From Octopus vulgaris (lineage: Eukaryota), in NCBI GenBank assembly GCA_951406725.2, contig OX597817.1:36580001-36644000 (forward strand): a DNA stretch of 64,000 bases, in the 5' to 3' direction. The first letter of the stretch is position 1. Every line of letters begins with the position of its first letter. The translations under genes and the position numbers were made by a program. Below are positions 57,797 through 64,000 of this stretch, one piece after another. The notes under the pieces were generated by a model. That model was not told the origin of the DNA, did not search any database, and saw only the letters and a program-made list of their open reading frames with translations.

Positions 57797-60700
57797 TTAT
57801 CTATCTACCTATGTGTCTGCATGTCTGTTTGCGTGCCTATCTGGCTGTCAGTCTATCTTCGTGTATGTATTATGTACAATCAAACTTAGATGTATATTAG
57901 TTTTCACAGTATTTGTCAGTTCAACTTGCGCTGGAAAGATTTGTGCAGAAAACTTAAAATCCAAGAGGCAGATGATGAAATGGAGTCGAAGTCTGGTGAA
58001 GTAAACGGAACTCGTATCAAATTTAAAGTGTAATAAGCTTGTTTACTGTGAAGAGATTGCAACGAAATCATGTGTTGTCTGAAGTAGTCAGTAGAAATAT
58101 CTCTACATCGAGGTATAAGAAAAACGAGACGTGATGAAGAACCATGTTAAAGTTACCATGTTGACTTTTATTTAACCCCGGGTAATACGTAGAGAATTAG
58201 AACAGCCTTGATCATTTCGTTTTTTCTTGCACTTTGTTTTTGTCTCTAGGTATAGGATATATGGATGTCATTATCCGCTATGCTTTTTTTTATTTCATCT
58301 CAAGACGACACGATATGATTAAGGTGCATTTGGATGATACTCCCCGGGGATTGGGGGACATTCGTGATCTGAGGAAGATTGGGTTACTATTTCTAGTACA
58401 TCCATGCACATGTACACACTGTCATTTTGTAGTTACCATTACGTTAGACGATCGAATTTTAGGTAAAATTAAATGATTACATAGTGCTAAAATTTAATAG
58501 CGCCCTGTTAATTCTAGTTAATTTTTCTTTTGTGATTTAATGATTATAACAATTATAGTCTCAGCATATTCAAAAATTCATAATTTTATGCCTAAAACAT
58601 CCAGTGCCTTAGTTAAGTCTTTTTATCCTTAAAAAACGTTTTGTTGGTCATTTGAGTTATTCAACATGTGGTGGAGTTTTTAAATATTTTTATCATTAAA
58701 TTTCATTTTTAACAATTCTGCCATGTGATCCTGCCGAGACAAACATTCGGGGTACTTGAAGGAATTGGTTAAACCTCACTGGCAGATCAAAATACAGTTA
58801 CTTCTATCTTATCAGCCAGTTAGGTCACGCGAAATATGAATTAAGTGCAATAACTGTGATAGCTCAACTCGTAATTCGCATGTTTAACAGAGAAAGATTT
58901 ATCTCCTCGGCTGCTGGGAATATTACGTACCTGTAAACATAGTTTACAATGTGGTTTCATAATTCGTCAAAAATAGCTCCAGCATATTATAGCTTATTTG
59001 GTTGCGATTACTAGCTACAGATATGGAATCTTGGTTTAAAAGAAAACTGGAATTTTTGTGCATAACAATGTGTAGCAGGCAAATATCATAAAAAGGACTT
59101 CGTTTTATGGTTGCTTTATTATTTTACGTGCCACTATAGAATTTTCGTTGGTTTGTTTGTAAACTTCTTTCATGAGCGCCCGCGTGGTATGCACGTTTGA
59201 TCGCTCGTTCGTTGGATTGTTTGCTCTTTTATGAGTTGCACCGGATGTAAATGTGAGAGAACTTCCTGTTCAATTGGAGGGTGAACTTTCTTTGTTTGGT
59301 AGCGTATTGTATGAATAACAGAAAAATGAAAAGACGAGGAGAATAATATAAAAAGGAAGAATACAAAACAGGCGGACATGAGATGATGATGATAATTACA
59401 ATACAACCATAATATGTTTTTATAGATTTATTATTTATTATTTGCATTTGCTTTACGGATTTTATTTTCATTGGACTAAATTCTCCACTGAGGAAGAGTA
59501 GACTAAACAACACTCCAAACTATTGATCCATCTTCTATTCGCTCTTTACTCTACTTTCACCATCATTCCTACACGCTCAACAGCAAAATTACATTCAGTA
59601 TTGAGGGTAATCACTGAATGAAGTTTAATGTAATTTGTACTTTTAATTCAAGTTTATTTCAAGATGAAGAATGAATTGTTGCTATTTTTTTGTACTTTGT
59701 TGATATTTACAGAAATGTTTTCTATTCTTTTGTAGTCAGAAAGTTATGCGAAATCCAATAAAATACAACTGTTTTTTTGAAATAAATGAAAATTAAATAT
59801 TAAAAGAAATAGTATAAAAAGTTGTATTGCATTGAATAAGGTAGAGAAAGAACAACGATTCATATTATCAGAACAAATGTAAATACGAACCAAAAACAAT
59901 GCAGCTGATAGAATAACAGTAGGCGTCCAACGAAAATCTGTTGCTGTTGTCGTTGCTGCTGTTGTTGTTGTTGATATTGATGTAACTGAGTTTAATTTTT
60001 CTTGTTGGTTACTGAATAAGTAGTAGCTGGAAGAGTAATCCTTTCTTCTCGCTAATCAGAATCGATTCAGTATGGAAATTGGCATGGTGGCCAATGTAAA
60101 TGGGAATGCTGCGGCTTGTTTGCTGTATTATTTAATACCAAATGCCCCTTTCATAACCTGAATAAAAGTATAGTCGAATACATAGTTTGAAAGATAATAT
60201 AAAACCAAAAAAAACCAAAAAAACAAAAAAACTAAAACAGAATTCAGAATCTAAATGGTGACCACAGACGAGGAAGTAGTAAGCAGACATCAATAAAGTG
60301 TAATATGGAGATGAGAGGGAAACACAATCTGTCGTGGAATCCATAAAGTAAATATCAAAAAGGAAAAAGAATTTATGCGGTAGCATAAATAATACAACTA
60401 ATTTGGAAGCGAAACCAAATAGAAAAGATATATCTCGTTTTTGAAATATAGCGTTGTTTTTTCACACGTCTCTCGCATTATAAAATATATAATTATGGTG
60501 AAATAGATAATTCTAGAGCAGGATAAATAATGATAATCTTAAAACTGAAAAGTTGCATCCTGAAATATAGATTTGTTTTAAACACAAACTTACGAATATT
60601 TTAGTATGTTTAGAAGACAATTGCTATAAATATTGAATCACCAGAGGAAAATTTACTGTATTCATGCATTGGTTGTAAGAAATAAATAGAAAATTATCTG

Positions 60701-61019
60701 ATTTTATCTATATGAATCGTTTGTTCTATGCTTAAAATTTAGTTGTCTAAAGTAATAATTCCCACCAAATGACACTGCGCTTATATGCATATATACATAT
60801 ATGCACAGGAAATAACCACTAAATCTTCCTCATACCCATATTTGTGGTCTGAAAAATGGCAAGGCTACATTGAATAATGTCTCAAATATATTATGTGACA
60901 CGAATAATTCTATGCATAGTTTCATTTCTTGCTTGTAACTATTACAATTATGTTAACTTACAAATACATTTCCGAGAAATACAAGAATAAAAGAATGGAG
61001 TCAGGTTCAGGTTTTTGAT

Positions 61020-61340
61020 CGTTTTGCGATTAGGTTTGTTTCATATTCAGTTCAGCAACGCGATACCTTGAGCAAATGTTATCTGACATAATCCTGGGCC
61101 AACCAGTGGTTTGTAAGTGAATTTGGTAGACATAAACTATGAAAGCTTATATATATAACAAATATCTTTAATATATATACATAGGCTCAGGCGTAAGAAG
61201 CTTGCTTCCGAACAATACGGTTCCGTGTTCAGTCCCACTGCGTGGAAGCTTGGGCAAATGTCTTCTAATATAGTCGCGGGCCGGCCAAAGACTTATGGTG
61301 AATTTGGTAGACGGAAAATGAAAGACGCCCGTCGTGTATA
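61020..61340 (+). mobile_element. Two tandem degraded family-A SINE 5' halves
   Basis: Both contain TTG(A/G)GCAAATGT..T and GTGAATTTGGTAGAC. The second ends GCCCGTCGTGTATA. Confidence 0.65.
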
Positions 61341-61833: not shown

Positions 61834-61897
<64 letters not shown>

Positions 61898-61985
61898 ATA
61901 AATGGTAGGGTTGTGTTGACCGCACGTGGAGAAATGATAAGCAAGGAAAAATTGTAAAAATGCAGAATGCTAAATTGAAAGAAAA

Positions 61986-63200
61986 TGTGGTATTGCGATG
62001 GGTACCAAGGCTGCATCAGTCCTTTCGAACCTCATAATGGGTTTCTTCGAACTATCACTCTATGAAATATCACGCCAGAAATTTGGACATGTTTTCCACA
62101 CCTACCTAATGGAAAACTGGAAAAGGTATTTGGATGATTGTTTCATCATATGGAAAGAACCTTATGAAAAACTTCTGGAATTCAAAACCATACTGAACAA
62201 CATACATCCCAACATCCAATTCACTATGGAATTAAGCAAACTTCATCTCCCTTTCCTTGATCTCCTAATTATAAAAACACCTAAGAACCAAATCATAACA
62301 GACATCTATCACAAACCTACAGACTCACAACAATACCTCCTCTTTAGTTCATGCCACCCAATACACACCAATACAAATATCCCTTTCAACTTAGCTAAAA
62401 GGGTATGCACCATTGTCTCGGATCCAAAAACACGAGAAATACGCCTTCAAGACCTCAAATAAAAAACGCTATTACAACGCCAATATCCCTCCACCCTTAT
62501 AGAGTATGGAATAAAACGCGCCAAAGAACTAGACAACATTACACAGAAAACCACCCAACCTAACACCACACACAACCCCAAAATACTTCCATACATTTCC
62601 ACCCACAACCCCAAAAATATCGAAGCATACACCACAATCATACAAAACCTCAGTCTACTGTCAACAGACCCAAAAATGAAAAACATTATAAATACACACA
62701 AAATCCTCAAATGTAAAAGGCAACACAAATCTTTAAAAAAACTCTTGACAAATGCCAAACTTCACACACCACATCCACCCCCAGCAGTCAAAAAATGTGC
62801 ACGCCCAAACCGTGGCACCTGCCCCTTCCTACCTGAAGGCTCTGAATTTATCTTCAAACAAGGAACGAAGTTTAAAATCAAGACTAACTTCTCCTGTTCC
62901 TCCGAAAACCTTATCTACGTTCTCACATGCTCTGGTTGCCAACATAATTATGTTGGGCAAACGAGTCTCTCGTTACGTAAACGAGTAGCGGTGCATAAAG
63001 AACAAATAAATCTCCCGGAATACCGACAAATTCCACTGAATGACCACATAAACTCATGCGCTAAAGACATAAATCCCAAATTCTACATATTCCCCTTCTA
63101 CCAATGTAAAGACGGGATCACCACACAGGAGAGAATTAACAAGGAGAATCTCTTTATTGAAAAATTCAAAACGCAACTTAATATGCAAACTCTTCGTTGA
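61986..63200 (+). pseudogene. PLE reverse transcriptase (from motif B) + Cys linker + GIY-YIG endonuclease
   Basis: CGIAMGT, WKRYLDDCF, LPFLD, TDIYHKPT, CARPNRGTC and LIYVLTC..C...YVGQT..LRKR..H all lie in one frame, broken only by TAA at 62460-62462. Confidence 0.92.
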
Positions 63201-63872
63201 TCATACTTCCTTTTTCTAACTCATTCTTCATGGATGGACTAACACAAATATATAAGGATACCATGCATTCATCACTTCAAGCTAAAACTTATATTCTTTA
63301 AATATCATTATTATTATTGTTGTTATTATTACTATCATTTTTATTATATATGACATAACAATCTGAAATGTAATTATAAATTGGTTTATGCAAACTTACA
63401 AAATTGGAAAATAATATAAATAAAGTGTTAAAATCTGAATGTTAAGTTAACAAACAGTTATATAAAAAAGATAATGCAAATGAAGCTAAAATGATAATTT
63501 TATAATTTAAGGTTTATTAACACCCTTTATCACAAAAAATTGATAAACACAAATTGAAGAGCTCAAAACCCATAAAGTTGTCTCCCCTTATTCACAACAC
63601 AGGAACTGAAGAACTACAATTACTACTACTTCCTGTTTTGCCAACACCCTTAATTAAACTAAACAACACATGGCTTTAATCCCATTGGATCCTAATACTT
63701 CAAGGTAATTTTTTCGTGAACAATCATTAAACTCAAGATACACAAAGACTTCACAATGTATCGGAGTACTTATTTTTAATTTCTGTACATATTTATTATT
63801 ATTTTTTGGCAAAAAACAATATAATTTTCTTTTTTCCCCTTTCTCACTTTAATAAAAAAATTTTCCCTTTAC

Positions 63873-63914
63873 AATTCTTGAAAAGTCACATTATGACGAA
63901 AACCGGTTTGAATT
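63873..63914 (+). ncRNA. Minimal type-I hammerhead ribozyme with U3-A8 covariation
   Basis: AATTC-TTGAAAA-GTCA(CATTA)TGAC-GAAA-ACCGGT-TT-GAATT. All three helices are perfect and helix III is palindromic. Predicted cut after 63909. Confidence 0.8.
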
Positions 63915-64000
63915 AATATATATTTATATTTTTTATCAATTTTTCAAAAACTTTTTCCATACACCCATTTGCATTAAAATTTTCTTTCAATTTAGCATTC

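What the first reader, a model, noticed from the sequence alone, without database searches (positions are those of the whole stretch)
63873..63914. 42-nt hammerhead with U3-A8 swap and UUU cleavage triplet in a PLE 3' repeat
Seen: helix I (5 bp), helix II (4 bp + 5-nt loop) and palindromic helix III are all perfect. The core reads UUGAAAA instead of CUGANGA. Known: positions 3 and 8 form a Watson-Crick pair in the active fold, so a double C3U/G8A change is compensatory and argues for selected function. The motif lies ~670 nt after the PLE stop codon, which ties the window's hammerheads to an autonomous element.
Basis: partly seen in the sequence, partly recalled or inferred. Interest (0 to 1): 0.72.

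Follow-up and report, generated by a model that had tools for sequence, protein, structure and literature searches.

The report
Penelope retrotransposon's swapped-core minimal hammerhead
This is a real hammerhead-ribozyme motif at the end of a broken copy of a common Penelope-type jumping gene; its two 'unusual' features are already published for such elements, it is predicted (not shown) to cut RNA only as a pair, and the most numerous relatives in this genome have lost one base at the predicted cut site.

Summary
The 42-nt motif is there as described and is rare in shuffles. It sits 672 nt behind the stop codon of a 5'-truncated, stop-interrupted Penelope-like element (PLE) inserted in (TA)n. 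U3-A8 is family-wide: 840 of 853 pattern matches, with no C3-G8 sister. So the swap itself shows no covariation here. Selection on the fold shows elsewhere: across six subfamilies sampled without using the motif, 13 core positions show 0 changes (4.25 expected), and all 5 stem changes keep pairing. U3-A8 with U17 is already published in a Schistosoma PLE, and a UUU triplet in an oyster PLE (PMC4209133). Verdict: new member of a known kind; this copy is probably inert. Side result: a derived, more numerous subfamily (586 vs 230 exact matches) lacks one U at the cut site. It is either re-registered or dead, which gives a natural test of whether PLEs need their ribozyme. No copy examined begins at the cut site. 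The scan noted a similar U3-A8 PLE motif before, in another genome (e1-9180768).

The parts
63873..63914 (+). Type I minimal hammerhead motif (whole)
   Evidence: sequence; descriptor scans; pair counts on 10 subfamily representatives
63873..63877 (+). Helix I, 5' strand; pairs with 63910-63914
   Evidence: outer pair A-U here, U-A in subfamilies B, C, D; third pair U-A here, U.G in older subfamily E1
63878..63884 (+). Core U3 U4 G5 A6 A7 A8 A9
   Evidence: U3/A8 in 58 of 58 protein-selected copies and 29 of 30 older-subfamily copies; N7 varies A/U/C
63885..63897 (+). Helix II (4 bp, G10.1-C11.1) with 5-nt loop
   Evidence: loop-closing pair A-U here, G-C in subfamily E; loop varies
63898..63908 (+). 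G12-A13-A14, then 8-nt palindrome A15.1...U16.1 (helix III, possible only between two copies)
63909..63909 (+). U17; predicted cleavage on its 3' side
   Evidence: hammerhead numbering (established knowledge); A in 17, U in 9, G in 4 of 30 older copies; one U missing in subfamily D
63910..63914 (+). Helix I, 3' strand
   Evidence: sequence
63201..64000 (+). 3' untranslated region / pseudo-LTR of the PLE; runs on to window-equivalent 64024, then (TA)n 64025-64076 beyond the window
   Evidence: the same sequence lies upstream of the ATG in full-length tandem copies
62463..63200 (+). C-terminal part of the PLE frame: linker and GIY-YIG endonuclease, stop at 63198-63200
   Evidence: PF01541 E 1.2e-4, above curated cut-off; CxxC inside GIY-YIG at 62928; linker Cys motif broken in this copy
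61982..62462 (+). 5'-truncated reverse-transcriptase remnant (YLDD at 62127), ending in an in-frame stop at 62460-62462
   Evidence: RVT_1 weak, E 0.03; 93.6% identical to a 753-codon relative; begins at base ~2809 of a 4.8-kb full-length copy
61894..61986 (-). Inverted piece of the element's 3' end, carrying the longer 'tail' terminus
   Evidence: arrangement as described for PLEs in PMC8557442
61837..61894 (.). (TA)n microsatellite, left side of the insertion

Best explanation
The motif is the minimal type I hammerhead carried in the terminal repeat of a Neptune-like Penelope retrotransposon family, and it likely cuts slowly after U17 only when two copies pair through their palindromes, as would happen in a tandem transcript. 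SHOWN: the motif and its place in the element; full-length copies carry it about 200 nt upstream of the first ATG and again at the 3' end; the core is invariant and the stems covary across subfamilies; U3-A8 is shared by the whole family. INFERRED from known PLE hammerheads: two motifs form a double hammerhead, probably helped by the element's protein, and trim or circularise the RNA. This window copy is a 5'-truncated, single-motif dead insertion and is likely inert. Cutting was not tested.
For: Anatomy. PLE context: C-terminal GIY-YIG, inverted 3' piece, (TA)n target, two alternative 3' termini. 16 of 27 copies that reach the ATG carry a 5' motif. Constraint among six subfamilies from 103 copies chosen by protein or overall DNA similarity: core 0 changes in 13 columns (4.25 expected, P=0.014); 5 stem changes, all pairing-preserving (two compensatory pairs, one wobble); 8 changes in 7 free columns (P=0.0025). 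Double-hammerhead fold -15.3 kcal/mol. Precedent: PMC4209133 (U3-A8 min-HHRs; monomers inactive, dimers weakly active); PMC3088659 (natural U3-A8; active in vitro per its ref. 32); PMC11167929 (PLE hammerhead cleaves only with the PLE protein).
Against: No cleavage data. The double-hammerhead fold is 3.8 kcal/mol above the best two-molecule fold, in which helix I is open and U17 pairs with A14. Stems plus palindrome are not significantly slower than flanks by count (5 vs 7.2 expected, P=0.28); in an earlier, motif-selected set the 35 constrained columns gave P=0.13. Flank rates may be inflated by A/T-run misalignment. No copy begins at the cut site (0 of 27; 0 of 30). The most numerous subfamily lacks one U there. 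G17 occurs in 4 of 30 older copies. Clade assignment rests on motifs, not an RT tree.
Confidence: 0.75

Rival explanations
1. The motif was an active ribozyme in older subfamilies but is dispensable for retrotransposition. The family has drifted toward weaker forms (A17/U17, then loss of one U), and the newest subfamily amplifies with a dead one.
For: The two-U form is derived (nested in three-U subfamilies, 100/100), has the shortest end branches, and outnumbers the three-U forms 586 to 230 exact matches and 48 of 58 protein-selected copies. With a canonical core register its helix III is mismatched (+2.0 kcal/mol). No 5' ends at the cut. PMC11167929: hammerhead mutants do not affect insertion in vitro. 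PMC8557442: Naiads amplify without canonical hammerheads.
Against: The two-U form can be re-read as a GUU triplet with a 6-bp palindrome and one extra A in the GAAA box (-14.3 kcal/mol), and a natural insertion there (U13a) is described as tolerated (PMC3088659). Its core and stems are otherwise unchanged, though the branch is too short to test that. Read-through of the cut site is also expected from re-ligated circles.
Confidence: 0.35
2. The fold is kept for a non-catalytic role, such as dimerising the element's RNA through the palindrome or binding its protein near the reverse-transcription start sites about 95-145 nt downstream.
For: The 8-bp palindrome is intact in every subfamily including the two-U form. 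The best two-molecule fold keeps helix II and the palindrome but not helix I. 3' termini cluster at two sites downstream: 17 short, 12 long, 1 reading on, of 30.
Against: The single-stranded catalytic positions are the most invariant (0 of 13 changed), and N7 and N17 vary as the hammerhead rules allow. Dimerisation alone does not predict that.
Confidence: 0.12
3. A chance hammerhead look-alike in AT-rich DNA, conserved only because the copies are recent.
For: Monomer fold is no better than shuffles; no Rfam hit.
Against: 0.01-0.02 such hits per shuffled window; two compensatory pairs and a wobble across subfamilies; located where PLE hammerheads are known to lie.
Confidence: 0.03

Closest known systems
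U3-A8 minimal hammerheads of Cercyon PLEs in Schistosoma mansoni (Cervera and De la Pena 2014, PMC4209133; main text parts 1-3 of 4 and supplement parts 1-2 of 3 read)
   Same: Type I, in PLE terminal repeats, palindromic helix III, U3-A8 core (about 1,300 hits reported). Row S. mansoni(4) of Fig. S3 has core UUGAAAA and U at position 17, as here.
   Different: Here there is no extra base after A9, helix II is 4 bp rather than 6-8, the palindrome is 8 nt rather than 4, and the triplet is UUU rather than GUU. The host element is Neptune-like by motif.
Other metazoan PLE min-HHRs in the same Fig. S3 (Crassostrea gigas, Aedes aegypti, Drosophila spp.)
   Same: The C. gigas row reads A-U-U-U at 15.2/16.2/16.1/17, a UUU triplet (read from machine-extracted PDF text); many rows have U17; Aedes and Drosophila rows have lengthened palindromes.
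   Different: These have C3-G8 cores.
Poseidon PLE hammerhead of Anolis carolinensis, PAc (Frangieh et al. 2024, PMC11167929; passages read)
   Same: Hammerhead in the pseudo-LTR upstream of two reverse-transcription start sites that give the PLE 'tail'; uncut RNA is what gets inserted.
   Different: C3-G8 core overlapping the start codon; tested in vitro (protein-assisted, not needed for insertion). Nothing here was tested.
Natural U3-A8 hammerhead variants (Perreault et al. 2011, PMC3088659; section 8 and passages read)
   Same: Same compensated 3-8 pair.
   Different: Not described there as PLE terminal-repeat motifs in the parts I read.
Neptune/Nematis-type EN+ PLEs (Craig et al. 2021, PMC8557442; passages read)
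   Same: C-terminal GIY-YIG with internal CxxC, CX4CxxC linker in long-frame copies, (TA)n targeting, partial tandems, inverted 5'-truncated piece, tail on one end.
   Different: Full-length copies here have a separate 280-378-codon upstream frame before the RT-EN frame; not followed up.

Membership tests
Hammerhead ribozyme, type I minimal (PLE min-HHR) | Core boxes N3-UGAN-N8-A and GAAA with Watson-Crick 3-8 pair | tested here: met
   U3-A8; 840 of 853 family matches
Hammerhead ribozyme, type I minimal (PLE min-HHR) | Helix II starting G10.1-C11.1 and helix I closing the ends | tested here: met
   4 bp and 5 bp; compensatory changes in both
Hammerhead ribozyme, type I minimal (PLE min-HHR) | Palindromic 15.1-16.1 segment allowing a dimer | tested here: met
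   8-nt palindrome, duplex -10.1 kcal/mol
Hammerhead ribozyme, type I minimal (PLE min-HHR) | NUH cleavage triplet | tested here: met
   UUU at 63907-09; UUA in older copies. Rates for UUU could not be read (primary paper not held)
Hammerhead ribozyme, type I minimal (PLE min-HHR) | Extra unpaired base between A9 and G10.1 (usual in min-HHRs, absent in some published rows) | tested here: not met
   A9 is followed directly by G10.1; published Marsupenaeus and Saccoglossus(2) rows also lack it, so it is not obligatory
Hammerhead ribozyme, type I minimal (PLE min-HHR) | Self-cleavage at N17 | not testable with these tools
   needs a bench assay; only contigs, no raw RNA reads, were available
Rfam hammerhead families | Covariance-model match | tested here: not met
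   0 matches at E<=10 in 63800-63990
Penelope-like element (EN+) | RT followed by C-terminal GIY-YIG endonuclease | tested here: met
   RVT_1 E 9e-8 and GIY-YIG E 0.0017 in a 782-codon relative; GIY-YIG above cut-off in the window
Penelope-like element (EN+) | Partial tandems forming pseudo-LTRs, inverted truncated copy, tail at one end | tested here: met
Neptune clade | CX2-5CxxC linker and microsatellite targeting | tested here: met
   CX4CxxC in L023; (TA)n flanks. The linker is shared with Nematis
Neptune clade | Placement in an RT phylogeny | not tested
   no reference RT set was fetched
Autonomous element (this copy) | Complete, uninterrupted coding region and two terminal repeats | tested here: not met
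   5'-truncated, stop at 62460-62, one motif only in the window plus 16 kb downstream
Non-LTR retrozyme | Short non-coding tandem repeat units each with a hammerhead | tested here: not met
   the motif is contiguous with an RT-EN coding element in the window and in copies

The most novel reading that the evidence does not exclude
The newest and most numerous subfamily of this retrotransposon out-amplified its ancestors after deleting a base at its hammerhead's cleavage site. Either an active PLE needs no self-cleavage (and may gain by losing it), or a hammerhead can jump register to a GUU site with an extra A in its GAAA box. The series A17, U17, one-U-deleted within a single family would settle at the bench what the PLE ribozyme is for.
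Probability: 0.4. Interest if true: 0.5.

Novelty: new member of a known kind. Interest (0 to 1): 0.25.

Why it matters
As flagged, little: every feature of the motif has published precedent in PLE hammerheads. The value is the family around it. Why PLEs carry hammerheads is still open (PMC8557442 calls the function unclear; PMC11167929 finds it unnecessary for insertion in vitro). This family gives covariation evidence that the fold was selected, and a derived, very successful subfamily with a changed cut site. That makes a small, cheap natural comparison.

Tried and rejected
Rfam: no hammerhead among the 150 of 317 matches shown for the whole window (those shown are largely microsatellite matches to miRNA models) and 0 matches locally.
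Monomer folding: uninformative.
C3-G8 sister: 3 genome matches, none with this family's palindrome or similarity to the element.
First constraint test: 5 of 6 free vs 3 of 36 constrained columns varied. I set it aside as partly circular, because subfamilies A2, B and C had been picked with a pattern that fixed the core. It was redone on copies picked by protein (60 of 150 hits fetched, 58 reaching the motif) and by DNA similarity.
5' ends at the cut site: none; nearly all long copies tested belong to the two-U subfamily, so the test is weak for the U17 form.
Expression: no RNA holder listed. Runs guessed to be RNA were contigs only, and contigs stopping near the motif fall in a stretch the tool skipped; no conclusion.
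Other hammerheads in the window: 42588 and 16631 have cores but no complete fold; 61637 has a core mismatch.
Two primary papers were not held (Lunse et al., PMC5785218; Zoumadakis and Tabler, PMC306830), so published small-hammerhead variants and UUU rates could not be checked; they may bear on novelty and on the predicted slow rate.
Searches that found no report of a PLE subfamily losing its cleavage-site base. One search (hammerhead, octopus, Penelope; the host name was my recalled guess, not tested) found no description of this family. These cover open-access text only.

Full report
OBSERVATION. The sequence at 63873-63914 folds on paper as a type I hammerhead: helix I of 5 bp, core UUGAAAA, helix II of 4 bp with a 5-nt loop, GAA, the palindrome AACCGGUU, U17, and the closing strand. 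It is the only full hit in the window. In 200 dinucleotide shuffles of the window there were 4 loose hits and 2 of comparable quality. Helix III cannot form within one molecule (2-nt loop); between two it is an 8-bp duplex of -10.1 kcal/mol, and the double hammerhead evaluates at -15.3, against -19.1 for the best two-molecule fold, in which helix I is open and U17 pairs with A14. The monomer folds no better than shuffles, and Rfam does not recognise it.

CONTEXT. Upstream lie an RT remnant and a GIY-YIG endonuclease frame ending at 63200. The neighbouring genome shows the element ending at window-equivalent 64024 in (TA)n. On the left are another (TA)n and an inverted piece of the 3' end. This is the arrangement described for Penelope-like elements (PMC8557442, passages). 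Against a 4.8-kb full-length copy the window copy starts at base ~2809 and has a stop at 62460-62, so it is a dead insertion. No second motif lies in the window or the next 16 kb. Long-frame relatives have RT, a CX4CxxC linker and GIY-YIG. With (TA)n targeting this points to the Neptune/Nematis type; I ran no RT tree. In tandem copies the motif lies about 200 nt upstream of the first ATG and again at the 3' end.

FAMILY. The 31-nt core of the motif occurs exactly 79 times in the genome. With positions 3, 7, 8 and the loop freed, 853 matches are found, 840 of them U3-A8. A looser C3-G8 pattern gives 3 matches, none with this family's palindrome, so the other 13 are single changes. U3-A8 is therefore an old, single, family-wide state. 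It is also present in 58 of 58 copies chosen by protein similarity (60 of 150 hits fetched, 2 not reaching the motif) and 29 of 30 copies of an older subfamily chosen by DNA similarity.

SELECTION. My first test was partly circular, because some subfamilies had been picked with a core-fixing pattern. Redone on 103 copies picked by protein or overall DNA similarity and grouped into six subfamilies: 0 changes in 13 core columns against 4.25 expected at the flank rate (Poisson P=0.014); 8 changes in 7 free columns, N7, loop II and N17 (P=0.0025); 5 changes in 22 stem or palindrome columns, not fewer than expected (7.2, P=0.28) but all pairing-preserving: A-U to U-A at the end of helix I, A-U to G-C closing loop II, and U-A to U.G in helix I. 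Two groups are small (4 and 2 copies), and A/T runs may inflate the flank rate. N17 is A in 17, U in 9 and G in 4 of the 30 older copies. So the fold was selected in the source elements, though the 3-8 swap itself is not the evidence.

A DERIVED SUBFAMILY. Long-frame copies mostly carry a form with one U fewer at 16.1/17. Exact patterns give 586 of these against 230 three-U matches (both patterns exclude the older G-C helix II subfamily), and 48 of 58 protein-selected copies. In a tree of 62 of 105 extracted copies (those covering the whole 3' region), this form is a 100/100 clade nested in three-U subfamilies, with the shortest end branches. Its mean distance to its own majority (1.1%) is like that of the B groups (1.0-1.3%) and below the window's group (2.3%), so 'youngest' rests on the end branches. 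With a canonical core its helix III is mismatched (+2.0 kcal/mol). It can instead be read as a GUU site with an extra A in the GAAA box (-14.3), or with no base 17 (-16.9). A natural insertion in that box is described as tolerated (PMC3088659 section 8), so it need not be dead. Contigs of three runs from related organisms also show one base left out at 63907.

GENOMIC TRACES OF CUTTING. Of 27 copies reaching the ATG (30 fetched of 35 matches), 16 read through an upstream motif and 11 begin at scattered places 40-197 nt after U3, none at the cut (+31/32). Of the first 30 of 609 matches to the sequence just behind the cut, all 30 read through it. 3' ends fall at two sites downstream, 17 short and 12 long, with 1 reading on into the coding region. 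This fits insertion from uncut RNA (PMC11167929, passages) and equally from re-ligated circles (model in PMC4209133); it does not decide between them.

MECHANISM. Most likely, in transcripts of tandem copies two motifs pair through their palindromes, form a double hammerhead and cut slowly after N17, probably with help from the element's protein. The pairing partners, rate and protein help are inferred from other PLE hammerheads; none was tested here. The window copy has no partner and is likely inert.

WHAT IS KNOWN. PMC4209133 reports minimal hammerheads in PLE terminal repeats, a U3-A8 variant with about 1,300 hits in S. mansoni, and weak activity only as dimers. Its Fig. S3 lists a PLE-linked row with core UUGAAAA and U17, many other U17 rows, and a UUU triplet in C. 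gigas (machine-read PDF). PMC3088659 reports natural U3-A8 hammerheads. PMC6765202 (passages) and PMC3884650 (passages) give the dimer model and the NUH rule. The 2026 preprint 10.64898/2026.07.22.740005 (part 1 of 5 and passages) concerns retrozymes, which this is not. Lunse et al. 2017 could not be read and may hold closer variants. An earlier, unreviewed note of this scan describes a U3-A8 PLE motif in another genome.

VERDICT. Observation confirmed, interpretation partly supported. New member of a known kind, interest 0.25. The residual interest is the within-family series of cut-site forms.

Noticed in passing
G000 family-wide, e.g. L023-L041 (L034:6716-6756, - strand): The most numerous, derived subfamily lacks one U at the cleavage site (586 exact matches vs 230); dead or re-registered.
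   Followed up: partly
window 60440-61257 and L021:4097-4949 (window-equivalent 64097-64949): An 857-bp inverted duplication, 90% identical, flanks the PLE insertion on both sides. It is more diverged than the PLE copy is from its relatives; origin unexplained.
   Followed up: no
L026, L027, L031-L035, L039 (full-length copies): An upstream frame of 280-378 codons from the first ATG, with no convincing Pfam match, precedes a proline-rich, frame-broken region and the RT-EN frame. A run of six T followed by AG sits at the junction in nearly all long copies; it might be a +1 shifty-stop frameshift site (idea from recall, untested).
   Followed up: partly
L023-L038 long frames: In most two-U copies the 753-codon frame lacks, in frame, the N-terminal stretch that is contiguous in L039, L041 and L042, so these copies may not be fully coding.
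   Followed up: no
window 42588-42616 (+): CUGACGA core with a 5-bp helix II and GAAA but no helix I; unrelated to this family; perhaps a decayed hammerhead.
   Followed up: partly
window 37931-38446 (-): Endonuclease-region fragment of a second, more distant PLE family (36-52% identical to this one).
   Followed up: no
L137-L140 (G000:C1:94342381-94343226): Small array of very short head-to-head copies whose inversion point lies inside the hammerhead core.
   Followed up: no
runs X1 and X2 laid on L034:6560-6900: Single contigs with clustered A>G or T>C differences, as RNA editing of double-stranded inverted copies would give; no matching DNA control, run type only guessed.
   Followed up: no
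L043-L045: Three C3-G8 hammerhead-like motifs with the same helix II but other palindromes, from unrelated repeats.
   Followed up: no
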